Shown piece by piece: positions 1,860-39,181 of a DNA stretch of 64,000 nt. The notes below the pieces were generated by a model. That model made no database searches, was not told the DNA's origin, and saw nothing but the letters and a program-made list of their open reading frames with translations. The stretch is taken from the IMG/VR virus record IMGVR_UViG_3300005326_000046, positions 1 through 64,000 of that record. The stretch is one strand, 5' to 3'. Origin of the DNA: a virus (lineage: Duplodnaviria; Caudoviricetes). The position numbers and the translations under genes were made by a program. Numbering within the stretch: the first letter of the stretch is position 1; each line of letters begins with the position of its first letter.

Positions 1860-2385
1860 GGTGTCCGTCAAGCAAGCTATCCATAAGTATGCTATTGTCC
1901 TATCTGGACGGGAAGGTAAATCCTTGGCCGGGTGTCGTTGCATTCTTTTGCGCGGCGCGCCTTCCCGTTCCCTAATGCCTGTACCATGTGACTATCCTTC
2001 CCACGACAAAGGCCCAGATTGTCGGATACTGGGTATCACATAAGTTGTCACCCCGCTTCGCCCCCAGGCGGGTTACAGCCGAGGAAAACAAGGCCGACGA
2101 TTCTGCTTGAGCGTATCGACTCCCCACAGGAGAATACGACTCTGCAAAATGTTGTTGTACGACAGCCAAGGGCGAAAACGTGAGCTATCTTCGCTACCCA
2201 GATTCATACCGATCGCAGTCGCCGCAAGGCGAGTAGGTGCGTGTGAAGTCCTCGCGAGAGGCACCCGGTAAAGCTGCATCCTGGGCGGGTTACCACACAC
2301 GTTAGCGAAACAACCGACGCCGGCTCCATACGGTTGACTCGCGTGCCTATCCCCACGATAGGGGTAGGTGCGCTCACTGCCCTCA
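1860..2385 (+). ncRNA. Candidate large structured non-coding RNA, antisense to the tail operon
   Basis: No credible ORF; many helices with GNRA loops (2219-2232 GCAA, 2250-2261 GCGA) and G-U pairs that only work on the + strand (2341-2373, 2151-2166). Confidence 0.5.
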
Positions 2386-6938: not shown

Positions 6939-6940
6939 AG

Positions 6941-7174
6941 CTACTTGCTCCTAGCGCGCCGCTTGGGCTTTGCTTCAGCTTCGGACGCATCAACCTCCGC
7001 TTCGTCTGCGGGCGATGCGTCTTCAGTGACCGGTTCTACGACGAATTCCGCCACATGCCGCTGATTGACCAGGTAGTCCGCGATGTCCGCTTCCAGGTCG
7101 TATTCTACCCCGGCCTCAAGCGGATGTCGGCAAAACCACCCCTGGCGAAATTCAGTCATGACGATTCGTGTCAT
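6941..7174 (-). CDS. Small acidic capsid-adjacent protein
   Basis: GGAAGGAG RBS; acidic with basic tail KPKRRARSK, typical of the gene after a major capsid gene. Confidence 0.6.
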   Translation of the reverse strand: MTRIVMTEFRQGWFCRHPLEAGVEYDLEADIADYLVNQRHVAEFVVEPVTEDASPADEAEVDASEAEAKPKRRARSK

Positions 7175-7189
7175 GGTCACTCCTTCCAC

Positions 7190-7218
7190 TTGACTTTGCT
7201 ATGTCGCCATGTTATACT
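7190..7218 (+). promoter_or_regulatory. sigma70-type promoter for the HNH gene
   Basis: TTGACT-17 bp-TATACT. Confidence 0.7.
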
Positions 7219-7248
7219 TAGTGCAACACAAACTAGGGAGATGCCAAC

Positions 7249-8124
7249 ATGACGAAACAACTCAGTCACAAGAACAGGTACAGTCGCTCATCCTATCATC
7301 GCAGGAAGGAACAAGGTCTTTGCCCACGATGTGGGAGTGAACGTGAAGACACCAGTCTCAGTTATTGCCGATCTTGTCTTGATAAGCAGAATGCTGAGCG
7401 CGACAAGAATCGACAAAAACATCGTGAGTACATGCAACGCTGGTATTCTACCATCCAAGGACAGGAACTTCGCCTCAGTAAGCTCTCAAAACGTAGACTC
7501 GAACCTGTTGACGAAACCAGACCCGAGAGTTACGTTCAGTGTACTATCTGTGGTGAAAAGTTTCGCCAGATAACCAGCACTCACCTGAAACTCCACGGTC
7601 TCACGACTACTGAATACAAGGGCCACGGGCACCCCTTGATGTGCCAAGAGAAACTCGATCGCAACGCCGAAGTACTCAAGGCTCGCTCCGAACAACAGCA
7701 GGGAGAGAACCATCCAGCATGGAAGGGCGGACATAAGTCAAAGCTTTCAGGGTATCGCTATATTTATCGTAATGGGAAACCCATGTACGAACATCGAGCC
7801 ATCATGGAAGACGTCCTACAGCGTCCACTGCAAAGCAATGAGCAGGTCCACCACATTGACGGCAACCGAGCCAACAACGATCCATCTAACCTGATGATTC
7901 TGAGCGCACCAGATCATACAAGGATCACCGCAAAACGCAGTTACGCGTCATGGCGGCGTCTAGGCGTGGTCGCCATTAGGTCCATGTTGTCACGTGGATG
8001 GTCTCTAGATGAAATCAGTAGTGAGTTCAACATCACCACAGAAACCATCCTGATACAGCTACGCAAGCATCCTGACACGCTGCAAGAACCACCGGTCAGC
8101 GCATCAGATAATGCTACACGGTAA
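7249..8124 (+). CDS. Free-standing HNH homing endonuclease with zinc-finger and HTH modules
   Basis: CPRC..CRSC; CTICGEKFRQITSTHLKLHG; HPAWKGG; EHRAIME...VHHIDGNRANNDPSNL (HNH); C-terminal HTH. Confidence 0.9.
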   Translation: MTKQLSHKNRYSRSSYHRRKEQGLCPRCGSEREDTSLSYCRSCLDKQNAERDKNRQKHREYMQRWYSTIQGQELRLSKLSKRRLEPVDETRPESYVQCTICGEKFRQITSTHLKLHGLTTTEYKGHGHPLMCQEKLDRNAEVLKARSEQQQGENHPAWKGGHKSKLSGYRYIYRNGKPMYEHRAIMEDVLQRPLQSNEQVHHIDGNRANNDPSNLMILSAPDHTRITAKRSYASWRRLGVVAIRSMLSRGWSLDEISSEFNITTETILIQLRKHPDTLQEPPVSASDNATR

Positions 8125-10702
8125 GGTTGAATCCAAGACCTACGAAGCCAGCACCCCAGAAGCCAACGTCCAACCGGGCGCTCATCATGATGTACCAAGC
8201 GTCCGAGAACGGGACCTGGCCTACGAAGATGCGCGGTCGGCGTTTCCAGCCAACCTTGATGCCAGCGCGGTTCACAACCAGGAACTGGCCGTACACGTTG
8301 CTGCCAGCCGTGCCATTGACGTAGCCGCTGGAATCGGTGAGACCGTAGTCCTCGGACACGACGATCGGAATGCCCTTGATGCGCGCCAGTTCGCCCGTGA
8401 GGATCGTGGCCGCAGGCCCGTACTTGTCCACCGTCAAGACCTCGGACAGATCAGTGAACTTGTAGTAGCTCGCGGTATCGGTCAGCAGGAACAACTGGCT
8501 GGTGTTGAAGCCGTACTTCCCGGCAGTGCCCATCAGCTTGCGAACGCCGCTGATGTCGTCGACCGTCAGGCTGCCAACGTCAACCTTGTCCGTGGTCGTG
8601 GTGACCAGCGGTTCATGGCGTAGGCCGTCAATGACCAGGATGTCACGAGTCGTGCCGACGTTCTGGCCGTAGTAGCTGATGTTGGTCGTTTCGGACGCGC
8701 CAGCGGTTTCGTCGCCATGAATCAGGAGCTTGTCAATCAGGTGTGCGCCGTAGACGCCGAACTGATCGCGGTGTTGCTGGTTCGGGTCGACGATGCCGTC
8801 CTCAGCCTGCTCTTCGGACCAGTAGCTCATCATCCCGACCTTACCCGCGGTGAAGGTCACCTTGCCAGAACCGATCTTGCTGTCGGCGTAAGGTCCGGCG
8901 TCGATCACGAGCTGTGATTCGTCGGTTGCCTCAGCCACCTTGTAGCCGGTCGGGTCAGAACCTTCCTTGGGGTAGTCGTATGGTTGGCTCGGCATGTCGA
9001 ATTGATCGAACAGCGGCAGTACATTGGTGTTGAGTCGGATTGTGCGCCAGAGGATGGCGTTCATCAGGGTTGGCACCCACTCATCACCATAGCTGGACTG
9101 CGTGGAGTACATCAGTTCGTCAGACTTCGCGCCGATTTCCAAAAGTTGCCGGATGCCCTCTTTCGAGACGTTGTCCGACATGGGCACTTCCAGAGACTTG
9201 CCGCCACTCTGGCGAATCTCTAGGACGTCCGACCGGTCATAGGTTGTCGGTGCGACGACGGTGGGATCGAACGCCGGAACTTCCATCATCTTCGGGCGTG
9301 CACCATCAGGCCACACGGCAACCGTGTCGGTAGAGCGCATGAACTTGGATCCACGCACCATCAGGGCGCGGTAGAACTGCTCGGAGGGTTTGGGTCCATG
9401 GCCGGCGCGGGCCTGCATGCTTTGCAGGTAGTAGCGCTGCGCCAGGTCGAGGTCACCCATGCGATCATACTTCGATCCCACGATGACCTGATGGATCTTC
9501 TTCATGTCGTCGGCGTAAGGGTTCTGATCCTTGTCGCTGAAGTCCACGAGCGGGAACGGGGCCTTCGGGGCCGCGTCCTTCGCTTTGGCCGCGTATTCCT
9601 TTTCCAGGTCCGCGCGTACTTGCTGCGCGATGGCATCGCGCTGGGCCTTCTCGGCCTCTGCTTTGCTGGCTGCTTCCTTGGCCTCAGCGTCCAGGCGCGT
9701 CTTGAACTGTGCATACAGTTCGTCAACGGTGGGTGCAGGAACGCTTTTCGGCTCTTCCTCCAGCACCTTTTCTTTGTCGCTCATTACTGTTCCTCCATCT
9801 GCTGTCGGCGTTTCCGCCGCGTCCACAATGTCCGTGCCGACGTCCAACGCTTTAGCAAGGGAGAACAAGGCCTGTTGGTGTGCTGGCACCGTCACGCCGC
9901 TAATCTCCCTGAGATCCCATCGTGTGATGTTGCGAACGCCGTTCGCATCCACAAATCCTTCTGCTAGGTCATCCACCGCCCGCACGCTGAAGGCGTTGAG
10001 GATGCCCTTCCTGATCATGTCGGCAGCCTTGCCGCCCCATTCCAGCGTTTTGTCCACCGCGACCCGCACGAACAAGCCCACTTCGTCAATCTTAGCCTCC
10101 AGGACCTTGCCGATGGGCTTGTGGATGTCGTGCATCAGTAGCACAATCGGGTTGCGCATGTAGGCGTCGAGACCCGCCTTGAACGCGGTCGGGAACATGC
10201 GATCCCCGGTGCGATCGGTCGCAACCGTTGATGCGTAACCCTCGATAATCAGCGTGTCCGGGTCATCTGGGTCACCGAACTGCTTTGCGATGCGAAGGTG
10301 GAATTCTTTGGGTTCCGCCGTGAGCATCTTCGGCATGTCCATGCCCTCGGACTCGTAGAGTTTCTTGAGTTTGGCGAGCGCATCGGCCTTGTCGGGTCCC
10401 TCGTAGACATTGCCTCGAAAACCAGAGTGAAGGGCGGCCCAGGCTGCACCAAGCAGCCGATGGTCTGGTTTGCCATCCGAGCCGCGCACGCGCAGATGCC
10501 AGGTTGACGGCTTCTCAGGATCTTCGACCACCAGGTAATGCGACGCTGGATGTTCGCCCGCGTCGCCTTCGCTCTTGGTGATAGCCTTTGGCTCGACGGA
10601 TGCTGCAGGGTCCTCTAGGTGAATCGTCATATCCGCAGATGCAACATCCTCAACCGCGTCAGTAGACTCCGTGGTGTTCTGTGTCTTTTCGTCTTCGGGC
10701 AT
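8114..10702 (-). CDS. Prohead protease - scaffold - major capsid protein fusion (HK97 type)
   Basis: IEGYAST..DRTGD, VLLMHD, AFSV, LREISGVTVPA (HK97-type protease); Ala/Lys/Glu coiled coil; capsid motifs GDEWVPT, YPKEGSDP, IKGIPIVVS. Confidence 0.9.
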   Translation of the reverse strand: MPEDEKTQNTTESTDAVEDVASADMTIHLEDPAASVEPKAITKSEGDAGEHPASHYLVVEDPEKPSTWHLRVRGSDGKPDHRLLGAAWAALHSGFRGNVYEGPDKADALAKLKKLYESEGMDMPKMLTAEPKEFHLRIAKQFGDPDDPDTLIIEGYASTVATDRTGDRMFPTAFKAGLDAYMRNPIVLLMHDIHKPIGKVLEAKIDEVGLFVRVAVDKTLEWGGKAADMIRKGILNAFSVRAVDDLAEGFVDANGVRNITRWDLREISGVTVPAHQQALFSLAKALDVGTDIVDAAETPTADGGTVMSDKEKVLEEEPKSVPAPTVDELYAQFKTRLDAEAKEAASKAEAEKAQRDAIAQQVRADLEKEYAAKAKDAAPKAPFPLVDFSDKDQNPYADDMKKIHQVIVGSKYDRMGDLDLAQRYYLQSMQARAGHGPKPSEQFYRALMVRGSKFMRSTDTVAVWPDGARPKMMEVPAFDPTVVAPTTYDRSDVLEIRQSGGKSLEVPMSDNVSKEGIRQLLEIGAKSDELMYSTQSSYGDEWVPTLMNAILWRTIRLNTNVLPLFDQFDMPSQPYDYPKEGSDPTGYKVAEATDESQLVIDAGPYADSKIGSGKVTFTAGKVGMMSYWSEEQAEDGIVDPNQQHRDQFGVYGAHLIDKLLIHGDETAGASETTNISYYGQNVGTTRDILVIDGLRHEPLVTTTTDKVDVGSLTVDDISGVRKLMGTAGKYGFNTSQLFLLTDTASYYKFTDLSEVLTVDKYGPAATILTGELARIKGIPIVVSEDYGLTDSSGYVNGTAGSNVYGQFLVVNRAGIKVGWKRRPRIFVGQVPFSDAWYIMMSARLDVGFWGAGFVGLGFNLTV

Positions 10703-11997: not shown

Positions 11998-12790
11998 CGG
12001 CCTCTTCGCCAACCTGGCGCGGCGGCTATCGCTATCGGTTGACGACATGTTGCGCCAGATTGCTGCGCGGCCCGACCTCATGGACCACATCGCCGCCGTG
12101 CTGGAGAAGCCAGTCGTCATGGATGCCGCGCCGCTCAAGCTACTGCCAGTCAAACAAGTAAGCGACGATGCCGCGCTCATCATCAGCAGCGGCAAGATGA
12201 TCGCGACCGCACTGTCGGCGCCCGAACAGGCCTTTATTGACGCCGTACGCGCGTTGGGCTATCGCTGGGACAACGGCCAATGGCAACGCACCATCAGACC
12301 GCGCGCCGAGCCGCTCATGGATCGCGCCGTCGAGCTTGGCGTTCACATCCTCGCGGCCGGCTTCCCGGTCATCGTGCGGTCACAAGAACTGTACGATCGC
12401 ATTGCGGCCAGCGACTATGCGCCCGAGATTCGCACATGGGTTGAAGAGCGCACAACGGGCAAGTTCGCGGGCTGGTTCTGCATCTCATGGCCGCGCGACG
12501 ACGAACGGTATTATCGTGCCGTGCGACTGATCAACGGTAGCAGGATTTACCCCGGCAGCGCGCTGATACCACGCGAACGCTTCGATGAAGTGCTTGACTT
12601 TGCCGACTCGCATGGCTTTTCGGTGAGCGACGGCGCGCGAGCGCTGGCAGAGAAGGCGCGTCACGAGCGCGCAGCGCTGCTGGTGGTAGAGCCGCAAGAA
12701 CGCACACAGAAACGCAAACCCAAACCACAACAGGAACCCAACAATGCCGACATCCTGGACGAACTGGTTGACCACGACGACACTGTATGA
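11987..12790 (+). CDS. Hypothetical protein coupled to SNF2 helicase
   Basis: Start MEIDG after GAGG; overlaps both neighbours. Confidence 0.7.
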   Translation: MEIDGLFANLARRLSLSVDDMLRQIAARPDLMDHIAAVLEKPVVMDAAPLKLLPVKQVSDDAALIISSGKMIATALSAPEQAFIDAVRALGYRWDNGQWQRTIRPRAEPLMDRAVELGVHILAAGFPVIVRSQELYDRIAASDYAPEIRTWVEERTTGKFAGWFCISWPRDDERYYRAVRLINGSRIYPGSALIPRERFDEVLDFADSHGFSVSDGARALAEKARHERAALLVVEPQERTQKRKPKPQQEPNNADILDELVDHDDTV

Positions 12791-14171
12791 GCACCAACGC
12801 ACCGCCGTTGACAAGCTGCGCTCCATCCGCGTGGGCGCACTCTTTATGGAGATGGGCACGGGCAAGACACGCGCCGCAATCGAGCTAATGCACATTCGCC
12901 GCAATCGCATAGACCGCGTGCTGTGGTTCTGCCCGGTGTCGCTGAAGGAAACGATCCGTTACGAGCTGCGCAAGCATACCGACCTGCCCGCCGAGGCACT
13001 GTGCGTGTTCGACGATCGCACTTCCATGCGCAACGTGCCGCGCGACGCGCTGGTGTACGTCATTGGCGTAGAGTCTATCGGGCAGAGCAACCGCGTCACG
13101 TTGGCGGCAAACGACCTGATCACGGATCAGACGTTCGTCATCGTCGACGAATCCAGTTACATAAAGTCGCACTACGCCAAGCGCACGGAGCGCATCACGA
13201 CGATGGCTGAGCGGGCAAAGTATCGCTTGCTGCTCACGGGCACGCCAATCAGCCAAGGCGTGGTTGACCTGTTCGCACAGATGCGCTTTTTGTCGCCGTC
13301 GATTCTAGGCTATCAGTCCTACTACTCCTTCGCCGCGAATCACCTGGAGTACAGTGAGAAGTACCCCGGCATGATCGTGCGTTCGTTGAAGACGGATCAT
13401 CTGGCAACTAAGATTCAGCCTTATGTCTACCAGGTGACTAAAGACGAATGCCTGGACTTGCCGGCGAAGGTGTCCGATGTTCGCTATTACCTATTGACAG
13501 AGCAACAGCAGATAGCGTATAATCAGGCGAAGGATGAACTACTTCCGCTCGACCAAGAAGTCGGCATTTACGATCTGTTCAAGCTCTTCACCGCTCTACA
13601 AGAGATCGTTTCGGGATTCTGGAATCGACGGCGCAAGACGTTGGAATTCAAGCATGAGCGTCTGGATGTTCTAGCGCGTGCCATCAATAGCATTCCAGAC
13701 GATCAACCAGTGATCATCTGGTGCAAGTTCCAATATAGCGTTAGGCAGATTTGCGCTATGCTGCGAGAGTTATACGGGGATGCTTCAGTGTCTGAGCTGC
13801 ACGGTACCGTGTCTGGCAAGGACCGCGAGGCGGCAATAGAGCGCTGGCGACAGGGTAAGGCGCGTTTCCTGGTGGCAACTCAGGCAACAGGCGGACATGG
13901 ACTGACGCTTACGGAAGCGCACTACGCCATCTTCTACGAGAATGGCTTCAAGTACGCCGAGCGCGCGCAGGCCGAGGATCGCATTCACCGCATTGGGCAA
14001 GAACACAAGTGCACCTATATCGATCTGGTGGCGGTGCACAGTATCGACGAACGCATCCAAAGTGCGCTGAGTAAGAAGGCTGACGTGGTGGCGGACTTCA
14101 GGGACAGGGTGCAGCAAGTGAAAGACGCCAAAGACAAAGAGGCGCTGAAGGCATTGGTGCTGGAGCTATGA
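12744..14171 (+). CDS. SNF2-family (SF2) helicase/ATPase
   Basis: LYEHQ; ALFMEMGTGKT; IVDESS; LLTGTP; GGHGLTLT; QAEDRIHRIGQ; true start may lie a few codons later. Confidence 0.92.
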   Translation: MPTSWTNWLTTTTLYEHQRTAVDKLRSIRVGALFMEMGTGKTRAAIELMHIRRNRIDRVLWFCPVSLKETIRYELRKHTDLPAEALCVFDDRTSMRNVPRDALVYVIGVESIGQSNRVTLAANDLITDQTFVIVDESSYIKSHYAKRTERITTMAERAKYRLLLTGTPISQGVVDLFAQMRFLSPSILGYQSYYSFAANHLEYSEKYPGMIVRSLKTDHLATKIQPYVYQVTKDECLDLPAKVSDVRYYLLTEQQQIAYNQAKDELLPLDQEVGIYDLFKLFTALQEIVSGFWNRRRKTLEFKHERLDVLARAINSIPDDQPVIIWCKFQYSVRQICAMLRELYGDASVSELHGTVSGKDREAAIERWRQGKARFLVATQATGGHGLTLTEAHYAIFYENGFKYAERAQAEDRIHRIGQEHKCTYIDLVAVHSIDERIQSALSKKADVVADFRDRVQQVKDAKDKEALKALVLEL

Positions 14172-15073
14172 TCTATCTGGGATACAGCCAAGACGAAAGG
14201 CTACGCATCATCGGTGACTATCGGCGGGAACACGCGATTGCTCATACCGTCGTGATAACGCCTGCCATGTTTCCCTTGCCCGTGCCAGACTCAGACACGG
14301 TAGACTACGTTGACGTAATCATGTACGTGACGTTCTACAGGCTTCTGCAGGAGATCGACAAGTCTACCCTGATCGTGCTGAACGAATGTCTACGCACGCA
14401 GAACCGCTATGACCTGGCATACAACTGTATCCGCAACTACCTGAACCAAACCGAGCACGTCTTGATCTTCCAGACGCTGCCCCAGATTGATACCGAAGAG
14501 GACTTCATGATCCTTTTTGACTGGGACACGCGCAGCAGGTGGAAACGTGAACACTTCAACCCAGAACTGATCCACGACAATTCCAACGTGCACGTGCGCA
14601 CGCGCGATTTTCACTTCGAGCGTATTGACGTGCCAACCCCAGACGCGACCAAGCGTCGCTATGAGGCGGAACGCGAGAAGCGCTTTGCCGAACTGGGGGC
14701 ACGTGACCCGCACACGATCCCGCGCAACCTTTACCAACTGGGCGGCAAGGACAAGAAGCGCTGGATGGACGAAGAGCCCGCGCCAACGCTGTTTTGTCTT
14801 GGCGAACCCATAGAGCGGCACTACGTTGCGCGCAACCAGCGCCTCAGTAGCGCGTCGGTGTCAACCTACGACAAGGCGACCATTGACAACATACCCTATA
14901 CCGTGATAGAATTCCCTCATCGGTTCATTGACTGGTGCGACTTCGTGACCGTCACCGGACAAACGGAGTTTGATGTGCTAGTCGCGGATCTGAAGGTCGA
15001 CCAGTGGTACTTTGACCGTTACGTCGCATGGAAGGAGAGACTCAATGCGACCTATGCAAGTCTACGGCGGTAA
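14168..15073 (+). CDS. Hypothetical protein in SNF2/IbrAB-like cluster
   Basis: 301 aa, ATGA overlap with helicase stop. Confidence 0.75.
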   Translation: MIYLGYSQDERLRIIGDYRREHAIAHTVVITPAMFPLPVPDSDTVDYVDVIMYVTFYRLLQEIDKSTLIVLNECLRTQNRYDLAYNCIRNYLNQTEHVLIFQTLPQIDTEEDFMILFDWDTRSRWKREHFNPELIHDNSNVHVRTRDFHFERIDVPTPDATKRRYEAEREKRFAELGARDPHTIPRNLYQLGGKDKKRWMDEEPAPTLFCLGEPIERHYVARNQRLSSASVSTYDKATIDNIPYTVIEFPHRFIDWCDFVTVTGQTEFDVLVADLKVDQWYFDRYVAWKERLNATYASLRR

Positions 15074-16175
15074 AGACGTTCTCACTGCGGCACGTGAGCG
15101 CATCGCATTTATCTTTGATCACTTCGACAACATTAGTTGCAGTATATCGGGTGGCAAGGATTCAACCGTACTGGCGCACCTGGCGCTCACTGAGGCCAAG
15201 CGGCGCGGTCGGCGTGTCGGCATCTTCTTCCTGGACGAAGAGGTGGTCTACCAAGAGACGATCAACCAGGTCGAGTACGTCATGGAAGAGATGATGCCAG
15301 AGTGCGTCATCCCCCTATGGCTCCAGATCGAATTCAACCTTACGAACGCAACCAGCTTGACTGAAACCCAGTTTATCCCGTGGGAGTCCGGCAAGCATGA
15401 CTTGTGGTTACGGCCCAAGAAGCCCTACTCGATCAAGTTCCCGATGTGGGACCGCAGCACGGAATACGTCGCGGATCGAAACAAGGGTTTCGGCTTCTAT
15501 GACGTCTTCGTGAACTTCGAACGCTGCTACCACGACACCGCGTTCCTCGTTGGCTTGCGCGGTGTCGAGTCCCCTAATCGTTGGCGCACAGTGTCCAAGC
15601 ACCCAGTTGACATCGGCGGTCAATCCATCTACTGGGCCACGCGCAAGGGCGAAAACGTGAGCATGTATCCGCTGTACGACTGGAACTTTCATGACGTGTG
15701 GCGTTACATTGGCGACAACAAGCTGCGCTACCACAAGATGTACGACTATCAATTCATGAAGGGCTATTCCATCACGGAGATGCGTATTTCGTCCCTGATT
15801 CACGAGAAGTCATTCAAAGCACTGGTGGATCTGCCCGAGTTCGAGCCGAAGACCTACAATCGTCTGATAAAGCGCGCTAAGGGCATCGTCCTGGCGCAAG
15901 AGACCGGCAAGAAAGCAAAGCTCTTCAAGGCGCGCAAGTTGCCGCATGGACACGCATCATGGCGCGCCTATCGGGACTTTCTGCTTGCCACCCACCCTGA
16001 GCCGGACAAGCGCGACATCATGGCGCGGCGCTTCGCTCGCCACTTGGATAACGAGTACGTGGCTCGGCAACAAGTACGCCAGTTGATCCTCAATGACTAC
16101 GAAAACAACTTGCCGGTTGACAGCCGGCCAGACCCGCGGGACGAATGGGTCGCATACTATCGCGAGGTGCTGTGA
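15045..16175 (+). CDS. PAPS-reductase-family (DUF3440 / IbrA / YbdN-like) protein
   Basis: SISGGKDSTVL (PP loop); FFLDEE; VGLRGVES; YPLYDWNFHDVW; MRISSLIHE. Confidence 0.88.
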   Translation: MRPMQVYGGKDVLTAARERIAFIFDHFDNISCSISGGKDSTVLAHLALTEAKRRGRRVGIFFLDEEVVYQETINQVEYVMEEMMPECVIPLWLQIEFNLTNATSLTETQFIPWESGKHDLWLRPKKPYSIKFPMWDRSTEYVADRNKGFGFYDVFVNFERCYHDTAFLVGLRGVESPNRWRTVSKHPVDIGGQSIYWATRKGENVSMYPLYDWNFHDVWRYIGDNKLRYHKMYDYQFMKGYSITEMRISSLIHEKSFKALVDLPEFEPKTYNRLIKRAKGIVLAQETGKKAKLFKARKLPHGHASWRAYRDFLLATHPEPDKRDIMARRFARHLDNEYVARQQVRQLILNDYENNLPVDSRPDPRDEWVAYYREVL

Positions 16176-27179: not shown

Positions 27180-28895
27180 ATGATGAGCGACTTCGGGCCA
27201 GGTGATCGCGTGGTGTACGCCGGAAAGCTAGTTCCAGAATGGAAAGGGATGGTTGGAACGGTCTCGGAAATGTGGGATGGTGGCGATGGATGCTTGGTCA
27301 TATTTGACGACTACGGGGTCGGACGCTGGGGTATAGCATGCAAAAACCTTAGGCATCACACGGGGCACACGTTCCACGTCGGCGATCGCGTAAAGTACAT
27401 TGGCGACAAGGTGAAATGGAAGGGACACACTGGCACGATAACGGTACTGCGCGGCAATGATAACGACGGACCGTATGTCGAGATAAAGTGGGATGACCCG
27501 CCGTACGGCTGCGACGCAACCGCCGCGCCCTACGAGAAGAACCTCATGCGCATCGACGAACCGCGCCCCTTCAAGGTCGGTGATCGTGTGCGGTACCGTG
27601 GCACGTTCTCGTATGAATTGGAAGGGAGAATTGGAACGGTTGTAACCAGATGGGAAAATGGTGACGGTGCCAGAATTATATTCGATGGCGATACTAGAGA
27701 ACATTCCGTGGCATCCATAAGCATCGAGCACTACAAGGACCCTGGTCCGGCGTTCCATGTAGGCGATCGTGTCACGTGTGTTGGGACCTATCGCGCCAAG
27801 GATAGCAAGAACGGAACGATCAAGCGGCTATGGGAGTCTGGCACGGGCGCAGATGTTCAGTTTGATGGCGACAAGTACACGATAGGGGCACGGTTCTGCG
27901 ACCTTGCCCACTACAAGGACCCCGTGGCGAAGTTAGCGGTTGGTGATCGCGTGCGGTACGTGGGGCACGTGAAAGAGTGGTCGGGGTTTGTCGGCACGGT
28001 GAAGGGGTTCGACGCCTGGCATATTCACGTTTGGGTGAAGTGGGACGATGCGTCCTTCGGCCTCAACTCAATCATGAATGAGTACCTTGTGCCAGATAAC
28101 AGCGAGCAGCCCGCCGCGCATCCACCATTCAAGCAGGGCGATCGCGTCAAGATCATGGATCCTGGTAGTCCATTCAATTTTCAACTTGGCACGGTGAGGT
28201 TCTTCAGCGACACGAAGGTATACGTCAGGCCAGACACAGCCAACATGGCCTATGGATTCCATGACTGCCACCTGATGCATCTTCCCGCGCACGTGAGCAA
28301 CCACCGGTGCACGATGGACTCCAGCGCGCAATACGTCGATAGGCGCGAGTTGCCAACTGAACACACTGTGACCGTTACCGTCAAGCCGTCGCCGTGGTTG
28401 CGCAAGGCTATTGACAACCTGGCGAAGAAGATGGACGCTGAGGTCAAGAAGGGGCTTGCCGGGCAGGTGGCAGACGCAGAGGCGGAGATGTGCGAGCTAC
28501 GGAAGCGGGTTGAAGAGACACTTGCAGAGAACAACCGCCTGAATGCAGACTGCGACAAACGGCGCGGCGAGAACAAATACCTGAACCAGGAATGCAACCG
28601 CTGGCACGATCGGTTTTACGAAGCGCTTGACGAGCGCGACGCGCTGCGCGCCGAGAACGCGAAGCTGAAGGACGAAGCCAAGACAGACGAAGAGCGTATT
28701 GTCTATCTAACCAAGGCCCGCTCAGAGTTAGCTGATTCGTGGAGCAAAACTTGTAGGCGACTAGATCGTGCCATGCGCGTCGTAGAAGCCGTTGCGGACC
28801 TTCCGTCCGATGGCGGATTCGTGGTCTGGACAGACGCGGAGCGTGTCATCGAATCAGCGCGTGAAGTCATTGCGGCCAACGGGGATGTGTGCTAG
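27180..28895 (+). CDS. Six tandem SH3/KOW-like repeats plus coiled coil
   Basis: FxVGDRVxYxG...GTV...V.F/WD repeated six times; long coiled coil in the C-terminal third. Confidence 0.8.
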   Translation: MMSDFGPGDRVVYAGKLVPEWKGMVGTVSEMWDGGDGCLVIFDDYGVGRWGIACKNLRHHTGHTFHVGDRVKYIGDKVKWKGHTGTITVLRGNDNDGPYVEIKWDDPPYGCDATAAPYEKNLMRIDEPRPFKVGDRVRYRGTFSYELEGRIGTVVTRWENGDGARIIFDGDTREHSVASISIEHYKDPGPAFHVGDRVTCVGTYRAKDSKNGTIKRLWESGTGADVQFDGDKYTIGARFCDLAHYKDPVAKLAVGDRVRYVGHVKEWSGFVGTVKGFDAWHIHVWVKWDDASFGLNSIMNEYLVPDNSEQPAAHPPFKQGDRVKIMDPGSPFNFQLGTVRFFSDTKVYVRPDTANMAYGFHDCHLMHLPAHVSNHRCTMDSSAQYVDRRELPTEHTVTVTVKPSPWLRKAIDNLAKKMDAEVKKGLAGQVADAEAEMCELRKRVEETLAENNRLNADCDKRRGENKYLNQECNRWHDRFYEALDERDALRAENAKLKDEAKTDEERIVYLTKARSELADSWSKTCRRLDRAMRVVEAVADLPSDGGFVVWTDAERVIESAREVIAANGDVC

Positions 28896-28933
28896 AATAG
28901 CCACAGCCTCGTGTACCATGTGTACAAGGAGAT

Positions 28934-28969
28934 CAGACGGCGCCGCGGAGATCGCGGCGTCGTCTGTTT
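28934..28969 (+). terminator. Intrinsic terminator-like hairpin ending the + strand block
   Basis: CAGACGGCGCCGCG-GAGAT-CGCGGCGTCGTCTG followed by TTT. Confidence 0.6.
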
Positions 28970-29007
28970 CGGAGATTGACGGGCCGTGGTATGATTGGGT
29001 TGGCTCC

Positions 29008-29064
29008 CCCAGTTGCTTCGGTGGCTGGGCGCGACGGCTCTCCACGTGGGAGCCGTCTGCTTTT
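29008..29064 (+). terminator. Tandem hairpins (UUCG-capped, then GC stem plus T-tract)
   Basis: CCCAGTTGC-TTCG-GTGGCTGGG (29008-29029); GACGGCTC...GAGCCGTC (29033-29057) then TGCTTTT. Confidence 0.55.
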
Positions 29065-34056: not shown

Positions 34057-34269
34057 TTGGATGATGCACTCACGAACACGATAGGCACAGAAGAAGCCGC
34101 GGCTTTCCTTGGCCTGTCGCAAGCTGGCGTGCGGTACCACCTGTACCGCGTCAAGGACCTGCGCCCCGACTTCAGGGACGGGAACAAGATTCTCTTCCTG
34201 AAGGATACGCTTGTCGAGTTCAACAAACGCAAGCGCAAACCAGGGCGTCCGGGCCTAGAACCAGACTGA
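34057..34269 (+). CDS. Small HTH (excisionase/MerR-like) DNA-binding protein
   Basis: IGTEEAAAFLGLSQAGVRYH...LFLKDTLVEF. Confidence 0.8.
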   Translation: MDDALTNTIGTEEAAAFLGLSQAGVRYHLYRVKDLRPDFRDGNKILFLKDTLVEFNKRKRKPGRPGLEPD

Positions 34270-34654: not shown

Positions 34655-35350
34655 ATGGCAGTAAAGACACATGGTTATCGGCTGCACGTGGAGTTCATTA
34701 CTCCCGTGCTTGGGACTCAGTCAACGCGTGAAGTAGCGACCGAGTTTATCGCCAAGAAGTCCGGCTTCGAGATCCCCCAGGATGAACAGGAAACACTCCC
34801 CGAAGCGCTGGAACGCGGAACCACCGTCTTTCACCGCAAAGACGACAAGCCGGTCTACTACGATTATCACATCCTCGGATTCCTGCGTGAAGCCGGATCT
34901 GTCCTCAATGGCAAGGTGACCGGTGGCGTCAAGAATCTCCGCAGTAAGGTTGAGAATAACGTCTTTGCGTTCCCCCGGCAGATTGAGCTACACGTGCCCG
35001 ATGGAGCGGACTACGAGCCTTACAACGAGCGTGCGCTTCGAGCCAAGACGGCGCGGGGACCGCGCGTTACCCTCGTGCGATCCGAGCAGTTGCCAGAAGG
35101 CACGTGGTTTGACGCCATGCTGGAAGTGATCGACGGCGAGATCACAGAGAACGTCCTGCGCGACTTGTTCGACTTCGGTTATTTGCGCGGCTTCGGTCAG
35201 TGGCGCACGGGTTGCTGGGGCCGGTTCGTGTACACGTTGACCAGCGACGAAGAGAAGCCAAAGGCCAAGGCAAAGAAGGTCGCGACGGATGATTCCGTCA
35301 CGACTATCTCGGGGATCCCCGTCATGCTGATGGAGGCACAACATGGATGA
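34655..35350 (+). CDS. Solitary Cas7-like RAMP protein (Vipr-like)
   Basis: YRLHVEFITPVLGT (RRM beta1); PVYYDYHILGFLREA; ERALRA; SEQLPEGTWFDAMLEV; Gly-rich loop GFGQWRTGCWGRF; no other cas genes in the window. Confidence 0.8.
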   Translation: MAVKTHGYRLHVEFITPVLGTQSTREVATEFIAKKSGFEIPQDEQETLPEALERGTTVFHRKDDKPVYYDYHILGFLREAGSVLNGKVTGGVKNLRSKVENNVFAFPRQIELHVPDGADYEPYNERALRAKTARGPRVTLVRSEQLPEGTWFDAMLEVIDGEITENVLRDLFDFGYLRGFGQWRTGCWGRFVYTLTSDEEKPKAKAKKVATDDSVTTISGIPVMLMEAQHG

Positions 35351-35600
35351 TGGTTCAGAATATGAATACGTTGATACGGTTCGAGTGCACTTTTATGTGA
35401 TTGATGACGAAGCGCGAGCATTGCGTAAGCTTGCCTATCTTGAATTGCGCACACCGCGCGACCAGGTGCGTTTCATGTTACGCCAGGAGCTTACGCGGCG
35501 CGGTTTGTTGCCGGTTGCGAAGGCCGCCGCGGATGACTCGACTACGACCAGCGCGGGCGTGCCCGTCATGGTGATGGAGATGAGCGATGCCGAAGTATGA
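35343..35600 (+). CDS. Ribbon-helix-helix-like DNA-binding protein
   Basis: VRVHFY strand, then DEARALRKLAYLE and PRDQVRFMLRQEL helices. Confidence 0.55.
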   Translation: MDDGSEYEYVDTVRVHFYVIDDEARALRKLAYLELRTPRDQVRFMLRQELTRRGLLPVAKAAADDSTTTSAGVPVMVMEMSDAEV

Positions 35601-36282
35601 CATTGGCAGCAAGGTGGCTTACAGGCACGAAGATGGCCGGCGCGTCGTCGGGCACGTGGTTGACTACTCGCCACATAGCGATCACTACACGATTCGCTTG
35701 CCAGAAGAACTGGTAACCGTCGACTCCGAGAACATCACTGCTGTGCCGAAGTACAACGTCGGCGACAAACTCAAGTACCGCAGTTCCGTAGGGTTCATAA
35801 TTCCATGCACCGTGATTGCTGTCCACGAGCATGGTAAATTCGGACGCAAGTATGAGGTTCGGTTGGAAGGAAACCGGTGGCAGAATATCCCCATGCATCT
35901 TTGCGAAGAAGACATCGTAGACACACCAAGTGAAAACCCAGTGCCGCCTGTGGGCTCACGCGTCTTCTATCATGACTTCTCACATGCCGAGAGCGCGTGG
36001 AGCGGCAGGCTTGGTACTGTTGTTGGTCTTGCGGTGGGTGGTGTTCATGTGCAATTTGACGGCGAGAAAGACACGTGGAACTTGGAAACGGCCAAGGTGC
36101 ACCTGGTTGACGACGCTTATGGATTGTTTGCGAACAACGACGCCCTCAAGTTAGCCAACAAGGAGATCGTTGTCCTCCGCGACGCGCTAAACTCCGCGAA
36201 CACTGAAGCAAACACGCTGCGCCGTTGTGTCGACAGAATTCATAGGCTTACCCATGAAGCACTGGGCCTAGATGATGACTAG
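35587..36282 (+). CDS. Three SH3/KOW-like repeats plus coiled coil
   Basis: YDIGSKV, YNVGDKL, PPVGSRV repeats; helical C-terminus. Confidence 0.7.
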   Translation: MPKYDIGSKVAYRHEDGRRVVGHVVDYSPHSDHYTIRLPEELVTVDSENITAVPKYNVGDKLKYRSSVGFIIPCTVIAVHEHGKFGRKYEVRLEGNRWQNIPMHLCEEDIVDTPSENPVPPVGSRVFYHDFSHAESAWSGRLGTVVGLAVGGVHVQFDGEKDTWNLETAKVHLVDDAYGLFANNDALKLANKEIVVLRDALNSANTEANTLRRCVDRIHRLTHEALGLDDD

Positions 36283-37254
36283 GCATTGGCAGAGATCCGT
36301 CTTGCGACGCGCTGGCATAGCATGGCACGGTAACGCAACGGCGCCGCGTGGCGTCGCTCGGCAGTGGTAAAGTCAGGCGTAGCACAGTATCAGCATAGTA
36401 CGGTCATGTGGAGCGGCGGCAAAGCGAAGTAAAGTCCCGCGGCGGCATGGTCTAGTCCAGTCGAGTCCCGCGCGGCAATGGCTTAGCGCAGCAGGGCGTT
36501 GGCACAGCGACGTGTCGCAGCGCGATGGCGTGGCCTAGTGCAGTCGTGCAGTGGCACAGCTTGGCGAAGTCTCGTTTGGCACAGCAATGGCGAGGTATTG
36601 CGCGATTCGGCAAAGGCGAAGCGGTGTCCTGCACGGCAACAGTCTAGCGTGGAACAGTCAGGTATTGCCGGGTGTTGCGAGGCGTTGGCGAGGCGAGGCT
36701 TTGTGAGGCGTTGGTCCTGCATAGTTGGGTGATGCATTGGCAGGGTTCGGTCAGGCACTGCGCTGCGCTGGTAGTGCTCGGCAGTGTTAGGCATTGGCAA
36801 AGCGTTGTAGGCCGCTGTCCTGTCTCGTTCTGCATGGCGATGGTCAGGTGAGGCGCTCTAACGTGCCGCGGGGGCACGGCGCTGTTTTGCGGCCCTATGT
36901 TCTGCAATGGCGAAGTTCAGCCTTGTGCCGCGAAGGCATAGCCTGGCACAGTTCAGCATGGTAACGGTCTTGTTTGGCACACTGATGTCTAGCAACGGCC
37001 AAGCACAGCAAGGTCCGGCAATGGCATAGCCCAGTATGGCAGTGCGACGGCAAAGTTCTGCTTGCGCCGCAATGGCGAGGCATTGCCAAGCACAGTTTTG
37101 TCCGGCAATGGCAAAGCGTGGTTACGTTTGGTAATGGCATGGTGCAGCAAAGTAACGCATCGGTAAGGCCAAGTGACGTTTGGCGATGGTGTGGCATAGC
37201 TGCCTGCGGCAAAGTAACAGTGAGGTAAAGCTGAGTCATGCAGTGCAACGGTAA
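36282..37254 (+). repeat. Non-coding NGY-NN pentamer array (candidate guide-RNA array)
   Basis: 36287-37254 parses exactly into 187 pentamers in 34 blocks, each block opened by one extra nucleotide; all but 8 pentamers begin NGY; no credible ORF. Confidence 0.9.
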
Positions 37255-37292
37255 GTCCTCAAAACGATTGGCAAGGCCCGAAGGGGGAAACA

Positions 37293-37847
37293 ATGGCAAA
37301 ACGGTGGTTCCACTGGAAGAAGTTAGGGCGATACGTCGAGATCGACACAACCCGCACGTGCAAGAACTGCGGCGCGGTGCATCCATACCTCGGAGGCGAA
37401 TCGTACACGCTTCGTCAGTCTCTGGGCGCAAAGATCATCTGCCCAGTCTGCGACCACGAGTACGAGATGCGCACAAGCCAAGAGATTGTTCTGGGCCTTA
37501 TCGAGCACATCGGGCACGTTGAGGCGGAGCGCGACTACTGGAAGAACTTGTGGTACAACGGCGGATACAAGAACCGGCCAGCACCGCGAGATAGGCCATG
37601 GGACATCAAGGCCGTTGACGGCTCGCCAACCATCGTCTCAGGGCCGGCACTGTGTCCAAAGTGCGGCAAGCAGCAGGTTGAACTACACGCCGGTGTGCTG
37701 TATCCTGGCAATGACCTTCCGCACATGGAGATTCGTTGTCCAGACTGCGGCCCGCTTCAGGCCAACCCCTACGAGCCGTCCGAGGATCCAATCAACAAGG
37801 ATGCTCCACCGGTGAAGCCGTGGGCACCGCCGCAGGAGCAACTATGA
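37293..37847 (+). CDS. Hypothetical multi-CxxC zinc-ribbon protein
   Basis: CKNC, CPVC, CPKC, CPDC. Confidence 0.7.
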   Translation: MAKRWFHWKKLGRYVEIDTTRTCKNCGAVHPYLGGESYTLRQSLGAKIICPVCDHEYEMRTSQEIVLGLIEHIGHVEAERDYWKNLWYNGGYKNRPAPRDRPWDIKAVDGSPTIVSGPALCPKCGKQQVELHAGVLYPGNDLPHMEIRCPDCGPLQANPYEPSEDPINKDAPPVKPWAPPQEQL

Positions 37848-38083
37848 GGTACTGTTCGGCCTGTCGAATTCGAGAGGGAACGATTCACGCATTCCTGATC
37901 ATGGACATCGTCGCGCCCACTTCAACGAAGCATAAGGACGTGAGCTTCTGGCTATGTCCACAATGCGAGAAGCTCACACAGAAGACGTTCACGCGCAACG
38001 CCGACCAGAAGGAACGCGTTGCGCGCTTGCTTGCCGCAGAAGAACCGCGGTTCGCGAAAGGCAACAATGGTCAAGCAACTTGA
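37844..38083 (+). CDS. Hypothetical zinc-ribbon protein
   Basis: CSAC...CPQC; AGGAG RBS. Confidence 0.65.
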   Translation: MRYCSACRIREGTIHAFLIMDIVAPTSTKHKDVSFWLCPQCEKLTQKTFTRNADQKERVARLLAAEEPRFAKGNNGQAT

Positions 38084-38430: not shown

Positions 38431-38625
38431 ATGGAAAAAGAACAGTTGACCGTATCGGAGGCGGCACGATTGCTGGGAGTCAGTCCGGCAACGGTACGCA
38501 GGATGTTGGACAGTGGAGTCATCCAAGGATGGCGCATTCCTCTTGGAACGCGTCATCGGCGAATTCCGCGCGCCGAGATAGAGCGCGTCATGCAAGGCAC
38601 GGGGCCAGAGGGGGATACGTCATGA
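38431..38625 (+). CDS. Excisionase-like HTH protein
   Basis: LTVSEAARLLGVSPATVRRMLDSG...HRRIPRAEIE. Confidence 0.85.
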   Translation: MEKEQLTVSEAARLLGVSPATVRRMLDSGVIQGWRIPLGTRHRRIPRAEIERVMQGTGPEGDTS

Positions 38626-38914: not shown

Positions 38915-38958
38915 ATGAAATGGGGCACTTGACAAAACGTTACGGAGTGTGATATCAT
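38915..38958 (+). promoter_or_regulatory. Class B promoter, probably leaderless
   Basis: ATGAAATGGGGCAC-TTGACA-18 bp-TATCAT with TGn, then 7 nt to ATG 38966. Confidence 0.7.
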
Positions 38959-38965
38959 GGACGTC

Positions 38966-39181
38966 ATGAGATGGTACTACACCATGGGTGAGGCGGCGCA
39001 ATTCTTTGGCGTTTCAAGGCAGAGCATATGGCGCTGGTGCTACGACGGCAAACTCAAGACAGTACAGTTGCCGTCTGGCAGGCGCGTGATTCTACGCGAT
39101 GAAGTAGATCGCGTCATGAACGCTGGATCACAAGAGGGGGAACTGGATGGAGAAGAAGCGAAGGCACTTTCCGACATTTGA
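38966..39181 (+). CDS. Excisionase-like HTH protein
   Basis: YYTMGEAAQFFGVSRQSIWRWCYDGKL...GRRVILRDEV. Confidence 0.85.
   Translation: MRWYYTMGEAAQFFGVSRQSIWRWCYDGKLKTVQLPSGRRVILRDEVDRVMNAGSQEGELDGEEAKALSDI

What the first reader, a model, noticed from the sequence alone, without database searches (positions are those of the whole stretch)
34655..37254. Solitary Cas7-like RAMP gene plus a ~1-kb NGY-NN pentamer array: candidate phage RNA-guided system without CRISPR (VIPR-like)
Seen: the 231-aa ORF 34655-35350 has RAMP/Cas7 hallmarks (YRLHVEFITPVLGT, ILGFLREA, ERALRA, SEQLPEGT, Gly-rich loop GFGQWRTGCWGRF). No cas1/2/3/5/6/8/10 gene or CRISPR repeat-spacer array occurs in the 64 kb. Two genes later, on the same strand with no terminator seen in between, lies a 968-bp ORF-free tract of 5-nt units with a constant NG(C/T) triplet and a hypervariable NN. 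Established: Cas7-family proteins polymerise along RNA with a fixed nucleotide footprint per subunit. Inference: one RAMP subunit clamps each constant triplet and presents the NN bases for pairing, so the variable dinucleotides spell a gapped target. This matches my recollection of the recently reported VIPR systems (Cas7-like Vipr plus GGY/NN RNAs, gapped dsDNA recognition, proposed to act against competing phages). The triplet here is relaxed to NGY and the array is long and blocked, so it may be a distinct variant. No nuclease is attached, so silencing or blocking is more likely than cleavage.
Basis: partly seen in the sequence, partly recalled or inferred. Interest (0 to 1): 0.97.

Follow-up and report, generated by a model that had tools for sequence, protein, structure and literature searches.

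The report
Phage VIPR system, punctuated guide array
A complete 80-kb uncultivated phage carries a VIPR system, a CRISPR-related RNA-guided DNA-binding device first described in 2026: a small Cas7-like protein plus a 970-base array of about 185 five-base guide repeats, real and well supported but a further example of a published kind, with targets still unknown.

Summary
ORF 34655-35350 encodes a protein whose alignment-based AlphaFold model is a Cas7/Csm3-type RAMP (VIA Z 12.2; Foldseek E 2.6e-8). Its family profile aligns over its full length with the clade of the characterised SUSP1 Vipr protein (hhalign 86.5%, E 4.6e-6). Positions 36286-37256 form one same-strand array of xGY-NN pentamers (G 96%, Y 99%), the only one in the 80,003-bp genome.

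In 89 of 95 loci with a homologue, the same kind of array lies within 400 nt of the gene.

It is not the characterised type II:
- The first G of GGY is free, and the two SUSP1 residues that read it (H17, D177) are replaced.
- There is no 3' tail.
- A 6-nt unit (junction consensus GC-RA-n-GGC) breaks the array about every 5-7 repeats, family-wide. Related arrays differ mainly by whole-block indels.

I therefore file it as a new member of a known kind.

No natural target was found. Local extras are an RHH gene and a Tudor/SH3-like gene between vipr and the array, and a clade-specific zinc-ribbon gene.

The parts
34655..35350 (+). vipr: Cas7-like RAMP protein, 231 aa. Core is about residues 1-200; G-loop is GFGQWRTGCWGRF; predicted long beta-hairpin 121-146 is the candidate thumb. 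Residues about 200-231 are a C-terminal tail absent from most homologues.
   Evidence: AF2 model with a 35-sequence alignment has pLDDT 81. Best VIA match is Csm3 9g9a_D at Z 12.2, and the top 23 rows are all CRISPR RAMPs. Best Foldseek match is type VII Cas7 at E 2.6e-8. hhalign against the SUSP1 Vipr clade gives 86.5% probability, E 4.6e-6, over 189 columns. There is no Pfam, PHROG, PADLOC or NCBIfam hit.
35343..35600 (+). ORF B, 85 aa: predicted ribbon-helix-helix DNA-binding protein. Its C-terminal 26 residues repeat the Vipr tail. Its start overlaps the vipr stop.
   Evidence: The ESM Atlas gives RHH_5/RHH_9/Arc clusters at 0.91-0.93 by features and Arc-like models at TM 0.52-0.56 by structure; this is a lead only. 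Tail similarity is 16/26 identical, E 5e-8, with many identical DNA columns over the tail-coding stretch. No homologue occurs in the 80 related loci.
35587..36282 (+). ORF C, 231 aa: three tandem small beta-barrel (Tudor/Agenet/KOW/SH3-like) repeats plus a C-terminal coiled coil. Function is unknown. Its start overlaps the ORF B stop.
   Evidence: Only weak leads exist: Pfam SH3_15 at E 0.27, and Atlas structure rows for Agenet, KOW, SH3_15 and Tudor at TM 0.35-0.46. No homologue occurs in the related loci.
36286..37256 (+). vrRNA array: about 185 xGY-NN units in about 33 blocks, mostly of 4-7 units. Blocks are separated by 6-nt units, typically [T/C]GG[C/T]NN preceded by xGC-RA.
   Evidence: HMM parse and unit composition; block list; junction logo. 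The RNA is predicted to fold less well than all 20 shuffles, z +2.35. No Rfam family or hammerhead ribozyme matches.
36862..36893 (+). Terminator-like GC-rich hairpin followed by a T run, inside the array. It lies in the only irregular stretch and may split the array into a 5' part (about 110 units) and a 3' part (about 70 units).
   Evidence: Consensus scan and irregular units at 36856-36900. Its function is inferred.
37293..37847 (+). 184-aa protein with two zinc ribbons, directly downstream of the array, with a ribosome-binding site and no terminator in between.
   Evidence: Sub-threshold zinc-ribbon Pfam hits, Lar_restr_allev at 27.3 bits against a cutoff of 28.6.
37844..38083 (+). 79-aa CxxC...CxxC zinc-ribbon protein with a QxxRVARLL helix: candidate clade-specific Vipr-associated (vap-like) protein.
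   Evidence: Homologues lie immediately after the array or immediately before vipr in 10 of the 16 closest viral loci and in one MAG. All 7 IMG/VR loci retrieved with this protein carry vipr and an array beside it, including 2 loci not found through vipr.

Best explanation
This is a phage-encoded VIPR system of a clade other than type II. It sits at the head of the rightward early/replication gene block, divergent from the packaging genes.

Inferred from published type II work: the operon vipr - RHH - ORF C - array - zinc-ribbon genes is transcribed as one RNA. Vipr protomers polymerise on the array RNA, one per pentamer. Each holds the invariant G and the pyrimidine through the G-loop and thumb, and exposes the variable dinucleotide. 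The exposed dinucleotides pair with foreign double-stranded DNA in a gapped register (NN, skip one base). Because no nuclease is present, the result is silencing rather than cleavage.

Shown here for this clade:
- The first base of each unit is free, and the residues aligned with the two SUSP1 contacts to G1 are substituted.
- The array is modular. Blocks of about 5-7 units are delimited by a +1 junction (GC-RA-n-GGC), and related phages gain and lose mainly whole blocks.

My inference: each block is one short guide cassette of 10-14 specifying bases, processed or phased at the junction, and several cassettes act together on rival mobile elements or host genes.
For: Fold: RAMP/Cas7, with model pLDDT 81, VIA Z 12.2 and Foldseek E 2.6e-8.

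Homology to a characterised Vipr: the family profile hits PDB 36pp 'SUSP1 Vipr protein' and type VII Cas7 at the G-loop. Profile-profile alignment to the SUSP1 clade is full length, 86.5% probability, E 4.6e-6. It aligns W183 and R184 with SUSP1 W178 and R179, Q182 with D177, and T21 with H17, followed by the invariant Q22 (residue roles from 10.64898/2026.04.26.720927).

Array: G 96% and Y 99% at fixed positions on the gene strand.

Linkage: 89 of 95 homologue loci carry such an array within 400 nt, while only 0.35% of bases more than 2.5 kb away lie in one.

Selection pattern: between near-identical arrays G never changes, while x, Y and NN do.

Modularity: the junction motif is conserved across 1121 junctions. 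Block length has its mode at 5-6 units. The larger indels between L045 and L049 are 31, 36, 58, 62 and 62 nt, each spanning one to three junctions, alongside a few of 1-16 nt.

RNA: the array is depleted of secondary structure, z +2.35, as expected for a protein-coated single strand.

NN composition: it fits codon positions 1-2 of the sense strand best in the window, log-likelihood -2.715 per unit against -2.814 for the next model over 185 units. This matches the published finding that skipped bases fall on wobble positions.

Self-targeting: none above shuffled controls, as published for VIPR.
Against: No transcript, ribonucleoprotein or binding data exist for this locus or this clade.

No natural target was found under any skip rule.

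The hhalign probability is 86.5%, not above 95%, and identity to SUSP1 Vipr is about 14%.

Two genes (936 nt) separate vipr from the array here, unlike almost all relatives.

A guide of 5-7 units specifies only 10-14 bases, which is short for unique targeting. The block may therefore be a structural phase mark, for example one helical turn, rather than a separate guide.

Across the family the codon-position fit is best in only 39 of 77 arrays.

Whether the free first base takes part in pairing is unknown.
Confidence: 0.88

Rival explanations
1. The locus is a VIPR system, but the whole array (or each half, split at the internal hairpin) is one long continuous guide filament. On this reading the 6-nt units are only periodic strain-relief or phase marks, about one per helical turn, not guide boundaries.
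For: The published filament has 5-6 subunits per turn, close to the 5-7 unit spacing of the junctions. No tail, ribozyme or other processing element lies between blocks.
Against: Typical spacing differs between loci, from 4-5 units to 7-8, although the proteins are homologous. Related arrays gain and lose mainly whole blocks. Searches that ran across junctions in a constant 3-nt register found nothing. A filament of 100 or more protomers would need a target of 300 bp or more.
Confidence: 0.2
2. The pentamer tract acts as DNA, not RNA: a set of binding sites, a centromere-like or packaging element, or a recombination hotspot. On this reading the RAMP-like protein has an unrelated RNA-binding role.
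For: No transcription data exist, and the locus lies next to the packaging genes.
Against: The motif is strand-specific and always on the vipr coding strand, in 89 of 95 loci. A 5-nt period with only G-Y fixed matches the published RNA footprint of Vipr, not a DNA-binding site spacing. The tract is depleted of RNA secondary structure. The protein is homologous to one shown to bind such RNA.
Confidence: 0.03
3. The locus is a degenerate remnant of a CRISPR-Cas (type III, IV or VII) module captured by a phage. On this reading it has a solo Cas7, and the tract is unrelated low-complexity sequence.
For: The best solved structural matches are Csm3 and type VII Cas7.
Against: The 80-kb genome has no CRISPR repeat-spacer array and no other cas gene among the proteins tested. 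No Cas HMM hits the protein. The gene-array pairing is conserved in 89 of 95 loci across several phyla, which a remnant would not show.
Confidence: 0.02

Closest known systems
Type II VIPR of Escherichia phage SUSP1 (Vipr = KT454805.2 28474-29061, minus strand; PDB 36pp; bioRxiv 10.64898/2026.04.26.720920 and .720927)
   Same: Both have a small (about 195-200 aa) single-RRM RAMP with the G-loop G-x-G-[D/Q]-W-R-x-x-x-G-R-F. Both have same-strand pentamer repeats with a fixed G-pyrimidine and a variable dinucleotide. Both are phage-encoded, lack cas genes and a CRISPR array, and lack a nuclease. Full-length profile homology was shown.
   Different: Identity is about 14%. SUSP1 guides are 4 separate RNAs of about 100 nt; the one parsed here shows 14 in-phase GGY-NN units ending in a hairpin tail. 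Here about 185 units run on without tails and are punctuated by 6-nt units. The first G is not conserved, and the aligned counterparts of its two contacts differ (H17 to T21; D177 to Q182). The neighbouring genes differ (RHH, Tudor/SH3-like and zinc-ribbon proteins; whether any corresponds to vap1 was not compared).
VIPR types with alternative YNNNG repeats and 'staggered' vrRNA arrays (same preprint: methods on type classification, fig. S17, fig. S18)
   Same: xGY-NN read one base later is Y-NNN-G. [quoted passage not shown]
   Different: I could not see the figures or tables, because no supplements are held. I therefore cannot say which of the seven types this clade is, or whether the junction motif, block indels and zinc-ribbon partner are described there.
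   Same: Same reading: a solo Cas7-like RAMP, NGY-NN pentamers in short blocks, and unknown targets.
   Different: It is on different DNA. My sequence look-up found no close relative of this Vipr in other windows.
Class 1 CRISPR Cas7 backbone (Csm3/Cmr4, type VII Cas7)
   Same: The fold is shared, as is the logic of one subunit per fixed RNA step with thumb-induced base flipping.
   Different: The step is 5 nt rather than 6. Guide information is interleaved with the protein-bound bases rather than contiguous. There are no repeat-spacer array, Cas6, large subunit or adaptation genes.

Membership tests
VIPR system | Vipr protein: a single-RRM RAMP fold with G-loop and thumb | tested here: met
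   The AF2 model (pLDDT 81) matches Csm3/Cas7 chains at VIA Z 12.2, rmsd 3.7 over 162 residues, and the top 23 rows are all CRISPR RAMPs. Foldseek gives E 2.6e-8. The G-loop GFGQWRTGCWGRF is present. A long beta-hairpin at 121-146 is the candidate thumb; that assignment is inferred.
VIPR system | Sequence homology to an experimentally characterised Vipr | tested here: met
   hhalign of the family profile against the SUSP1-clade profile gives 86.5% probability, E 4.6e-6, over 189 columns spanning both proteins. Single-sequence hhalign gives E 2.5e-4 over the C-terminal 49 columns. The PDB profile search lists 36pp_D 'SUSP1 Vipr protein' at E 1.5 in the same region. The support is moderate, not overwhelming.
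VIPR system | Tandem pentamer RNA repeats that alternate a conserved GGY (or related) motif with hypervariable NN, on the vipr strand | tested here: met
   There are 185 units with G 96%, Y 99%, and variable NN and first base. This corresponds to the 'related consensus' YNNNG named in the preprint.
VIPR system | Gene and array are physically linked across the family | tested here: met
   89 of 95 homologue loci have an array within 400 nt, and 3 of the 6 exceptions are cut by contig ends. In this window the gap is 936 nt and holds two genes.
VIPR system | No CRISPR array and no other cas genes in the locus | tested here: met
   Rfam, TRF and ARAGORN on the window; PADLOC and NCBIfam on locus proteins and several large ORFs.
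VIPR system | A vipr-accessory (vap) gene | tested here: inconclusive
   No neighbour is conserved across the 80 loci. A 79-aa zinc-ribbon gene is linked in the closest clade. An RHH gene lies in the operon. Their relation to vap1-6 could not be checked.
VIPR system | vrRNA is expressed and co-purifies with Vipr; DNA binding is programmable under the 1-nt skip rule | not testable with these tools
   This needs small-RNA sequencing, pulldown and binding or reporter assays.
VIPR system | Natural targets in competing mobile elements at 80% or higher NN match | tested here: inconclusive
   No match above shuffled controls was found in the sequence I could search. Exact-pattern scans of IMG/VR and JGI metagenomes, and a scan allowing 3 mismatches across 404 genomes, were empty or gave chance hits. 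The searches were far less sensitive than the preprint's nhmmer workflow.
Type II VIPR (SUSP1 / P. fulva clade) | Separate vrRNAs of 9-16 strictly in-phase GGY-NN repeats, each capped by a conserved structured 3' tail | tested here: not met
   The window array has no tails, its first position is only 33% G, and it has 6-nt units every 5-7 repeats. SUSP1's own RNAs, read, show the type II layout. I therefore do not file this as type II.
Type II VIPR (SUSP1 / P. fulva clade) | G1-reading residues H17 and D177 | tested here: not met
   The aligned positions are T21 (followed by the invariant Q22) and Q182, nearly invariant in the family. W178 and R179 are kept as W183 and R184.
CRISPR-Cas class 1 effector | Cas7 accompanied by Cas5 or a large subunit, with a repeat-spacer array | tested here: not met
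   None was found in the 80-kb genome.

The most novel reading that the evidence does not exclude
The punctuated arrays of this clade may be a guide architecture not yet worked out. They would consist of dozens of ultra-short cassettes (5-7 repeats, 10-14 specifying bases), delimited by a GC-RA-n-GGC junction, gained and lost as units like CRISPR spacers, and made without tail, ribozyme or Cas6. The Vipr has lost G1 recognition, so the freed base could even join the code. If so, the targeting rule, the processing and the way such short guides reach specificity (many cassettes cooperating on one target) would differ from the published 1-nt-skip type II mechanism.
Probability: 0.2. Interest if true: 0.65.

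Novelty: new member of a known kind. Interest (0 to 1): 0.4.

Why it matters
VIPR systems were proposed in 2026 as a phage-borne, pre-CRISPR form of RNA-guided DNA recognition with a non-contiguous code. The biochemistry and structures come from type II (SUSP1), with supporting expression and pull-down work on the related P. fulva system and sRNA-seq of types III and V.

This locus is a complete, clean example of a much larger and more divergent clade. IMG/VR holds at least 111 loci, and there are MAGs of Chloroflexota, Acidobacteriota, Planctomycetota and others. In this clade the repeat motif is relaxed and the array is built of short cassettes.

The clade offers a natural experiment on how the protein reads the repeat: D177 to Q goes with loss of the first G. 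It could also show how guides are delimited without a tail.

As a finding it confirms the known kind rather than revealing a new one.

Tried and rejected
1. Single-sequence AF2 of the protein gave pLDDT 31 and was unusable. The alignment-based model was used instead.

2. Pfam, PHROGs, PADLOC and NCBIfam gave nothing for Vipr, ORF B or ORF C.

3. Rfam found no family, hammerhead or CRISPR repeat in or near the array.

4. Target searches were all negative or at chance:
- Own genome, NN with skip 0-3 and NNx with skip 0-2, compared with shuffles.
- 0.9-2 Mb of related loci: 12-unit windows with up to 2 mismatches gave only poly-A artefacts. Three-base codes gave only hits to unmasked homologous arrays. 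Single-block exact matches gave 41-52 observed against 47-60 shuffled.
- Three IMG/VR seeds of 9-10 units gave 0, 2 and 0 hits. Both hits had flanks matching at 25-32%, which is chance level.
- One contiguous 21-mer under an 'x pairs too' code gave 0 hits.
- Two JGI metagenome scans of 10-11 units gave 0 hits.
- A 14-unit pattern with up to 3 mismatches gave 0 hits in 3 MAGs that carry relatives and in 401 genomes of the class of one of them.
These scans covered only about a quarter of the units and mostly required exact matches, so they do not argue against targeting.

Nothing was learned.

6. The search for related loci with the 9-sequence zinc-ribbon alignment failed for lack of a conserved stretch. 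A 5-sequence alignment worked.

7. A minus-strand parse hit at 14639-14747 looks like chance inside coding sequence.

8. My regex survey of the G-loop across loci was crude. It found GxGQ[W/F][R/H] in 57 loci and false matches elsewhere. The alignment is the better evidence.
Full report
OBSERVATION

The window is the first 64 kb of a complete 80,003-bp IMG/VR virus record. The record has 123-bp direct terminal repeats and 56.5% G+C.

ORF 34655-35350 (+) encodes 231 aa behind an AAGGAG ribosome-binding site.

Downstream, base identity at lag 5 reaches 0.38-0.45 over 36201-37100. The window background is 0.249 +/- 0.037, and no other region does this. A five-state HMM parse gives one + strand array at 36286-37256 with 153 five-base and 32 six-base units:
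- Position 1 is free (A32 C14 G33 T21).
- Position 2 is G in 96% of units.
- Position 3 is C in 58% and T in 41%.
- Positions 4-5 are variable.

It is the only such array of 150 nt or more in the genome. Tandem Repeats Finder does not see it, because only two of five positions are fixed. Mechanical ORFs overlap the tract, so 'ORF-free' is not literally true, but a 5-nt period is incompatible with coding.

THE PROTEIN

No Pfam, PHROG, PADLOC or NCBIfam model hits it. It has more than 130 metagenomic relatives of about 195-205 aa.

An AlphaFold2 model built on 35 of these relatives has pLDDT 81. Its best solved matches are all CRISPR RAMPs:
- Csm3 9g9a_D at Z 12.2.
- Type VII Cas7.
- Cmr4 and gRAMP domains.
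- Foldseek E down to 2.6e-8.

The family profile also hits type VII Cas7 (E 7.5e-4) and, weakly, PDB 36pp 'SUSP1 Vipr protein', both at the glycine-rich loop.

I took the SUSP1 genome from GenBank (KT454805.2). Its Vipr gene is at 28474-29061 on the minus strand, flanked by the expected intergenic vrRNA regions. The translation carries H17 and D177-W178-R179 as in the structure paper. I collected its relatives and compared profiles. hhalign gives 86.5% probability, E 4.6e-6, over 189 columns spanning both proteins.

The window protein is therefore a distant (about 14% identical) but full-length homologue of a characterised Vipr.

LINKAGE

I fetched 80 IMG/VR loci and 15 MAG loci that encode relatives and parsed them with the same HMM.
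- 89 of 95 have a same-strand xGY-NN array of 150-1700 nt within 400 nt of the gene (83 downstream, 6 upstream).
- Three of the six exceptions end within 160 nt of the gene.
- More than 2.5 kb away from the gene, only 0.35% of bases lie in such arrays.

The MAG hosts are Anaerolineae/Chloroflexota and Blastocatellia for the closest relatives (50-56% identity). More distant relatives are in Planctomycetota, Gemmatimonadota and others.

WHAT IS KNOWN

VIPR systems were described in two 2026 preprints (10.64898/2026.04.26.720920 and .720927). The published picture is:
- Vipr is a minimal RAMP.
- vrRNAs are runs of GGY-NN pentamers. One Vipr protomer binds per repeat and sequesters GGY.
- The NN bases pair with double-stranded DNA while skipping every third target base.
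- Natural targets are mostly rival phages and satellites.
- The outcome is transcriptional silencing.

Seven types are defined. The methods name alternative NNNGG, YNNNG and NNNNG repeats, 'staggered' arrays of abutting vrRNAs, and ribozyme-interspersed arrays. The supplements are not held, so I cannot assign a type.

This scan has 138 earlier VIPR notes. One of them (e1-5634545) describes the same sort of punctuated NGY array on other DNA.

HOW THIS CLADE DIFFERS FROM TYPE II

First, the first G of GGY is not conserved in any of the arrays (G is mostly 10-45% at that position). In the alignment, the positions matching the two SUSP1 residues that hydrogen-bond G1 are replaced: H17 by T21 (followed by the invariant Q22), and D177 by the nearly invariant Q182. 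The contacts for G2 and Y3 (W178, R179) are kept as W183 and R184. The link between the substitutions and the relaxed base is my inference.

Second, there is no 3' tail. The vrRNA array of SUSP1 read shows in-phase pentamers (14 in the first RNA) followed by a hairpin tail. Here the units simply run on.

Third, a 6-nt unit shifts the phase by +1 roughly every 5-7 units. This is a family trait:
- Block lengths have their mode at 5-6 units over 1617 blocks.
- 1121 junctions share a consensus of x-G-C-R-A / n-G-G-C-R. A reaches 60% at position -1, against 28% in regular units.

Fourth, related arrays evolve by blocks:
- The larger indels between L045 and L049 are 31, 36, 58, 62 and 62 nt, each spanning one to three junctions. 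A few small indels of 1-16 nt also occur.
- L051 and L052 differ by one 35-nt segment.
- Between those two near-identical arrays, G changed at 0 of 291 positions, while x, Y and NN all changed.

Finally, the array RNA is predicted to be less structured than all 20 shuffles (z +2.35). That suits a protein-coated single strand.

LOCAL ANATOMY

Uniquely among the 95 loci, two genes lie between vipr and the array:
- An 85-aa protein that looks like a ribbon-helix-helix DNA binder (Atlas lead).
- A 231-aa protein with three Tudor/SH3/KOW-like barrels and a coiled coil (weak leads).

The three genes overlap stop-to-start.

The Vipr here has a 30-residue tail that most relatives lack. Its last 26 residues resemble the end of the RHH protein (16/26 identical, E 5e-8; many DNA columns are also identical). 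This may mark a shared docking peptide or simply the scar of the insertion.

A terminator-like hairpin sits inside the array at 36862-36893. No terminator follows the array, which runs into a 184-aa double zinc-ribbon gene and then a 79-aa zinc-ribbon gene.

Homologues of the 79-aa protein sit right after the array or right before vipr in 10 of the 16 closest viral loci and in one MAG. All seven IMG/VR loci retrieved with it carry vipr and an array beside it. It is the best candidate for a clade-specific accessory protein.

The locus lies between the leftward terminase/portal genes and the rightward DnaD/DnaC/DnaB, SbcCD and methyltransferase genes. No integrase turned up among the ORFs I scanned, but the scan was partial.

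TARGETS

I found none.
- The own genome has no match above shuffled controls under any of seven codes. This agrees with the published absence of self-targeting.
- About 1-2 Mb of related phage and MAG sequence gave nothing beyond artefacts, either for 12-unit windows or for single blocks.
- Six exact-pattern scans of IMG/VR and JGI metagenomes were empty, or gave two hits whose flanks matched at chance level.
- A 14-unit pattern with up to three mismatches was not found in 404 genomes.

These searches were insensitive and cover a minority of the array.

One indirect hint is that the NN dinucleotide spectrum of the window's array fits codon positions 1-2 of the sense strand better than five other frames. 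The log-likelihood is -2.715 per unit against -2.814 over 185 units. That frame is also the most frequent best fit across the family, in 39 of 77 arrays. This is what the published wobble-skipping rule predicts for guides aimed at genes.

VERDICT

This is a VIPR system. It is not type II and belongs to a large environmental clade with relaxed xGY-NN repeats in short, junction-delimited blocks. The preprint appears to cover that layout under YNNNG repeats and staggered arrays.

I rate it a new member of a known kind, with interest 0.4.

Still open, and potentially more novel:
- What a block is: a separate 10-14-base guide or a phase mark.
- How blocks are processed.
- Whether the freed first base is read.
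- What the array targets.

Noticed in passing
window 35255-35347 and 35513-35597: The last 26 residues of Vipr and of the following RHH protein are alike (..DDSVTTISGIPVMLME.. against ..DDSTTTSAGVPVMVME..; 16/26 identical, E 5e-8), and many DNA columns are identical too. This is either a shared docking peptide or a recombination scar from insertion of the two-gene cassette.
   Followed up: partly
window 37844-38083; also L002, L003, L005, L007-L011, L016, L083, L102, L103: A roughly 75-aa CxxC...CxxC zinc-ribbon protein with a QxxRVARLL helix is found only next to vipr-array modules of the closest clade. In L103 it lies between two arrays. It has no known family.
   Followed up: partly
window 2192-2303 (+): Rfam EGFOA RNA (RF02955) matches at 48.5 bits, above its gathering score of 37.7. 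This is an environmental sRNA motif of unknown function, here inside a phage genome.
   Followed up: no
window 12744-14171 and 15012-16175 (+): An SNF2-family helicase (ZorD/DpdE-like by PADLOC) lies close to a PAPS-reductase/DUF3440 protein with a weak DndC-like hit. This may be a phage DNA-modification or anti-defence module.
   Followed up: no
L051 and L052, arrays 6642-8244 and 6642-8208: Two near-identical phages differ in their 1.6-kb arrays by one 35-nt segment that is a tandem duplicate of its neighbour. This suggests that arrays grow by block duplication followed by divergence.
   Followed up: partly
L027 (arrays 5035-5922 and 6524-8228), L043, L042, L056, L063: Some relatives carry arrays on both sides of vipr. 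The longest single array seen is 1705 nt, with 66 junctions spaced almost exactly 5 units apart.
   Followed up: no
window 38431-38625 and 38957-39181 (+): Two small HTH_17 (excisionase/MerR-like) DNA-binding proteins lie just downstream of the VIPR operon, and a third small HTH-like ORF lies at 34057-34269 upstream. The region is dense in small regulators.
   Followed up: no
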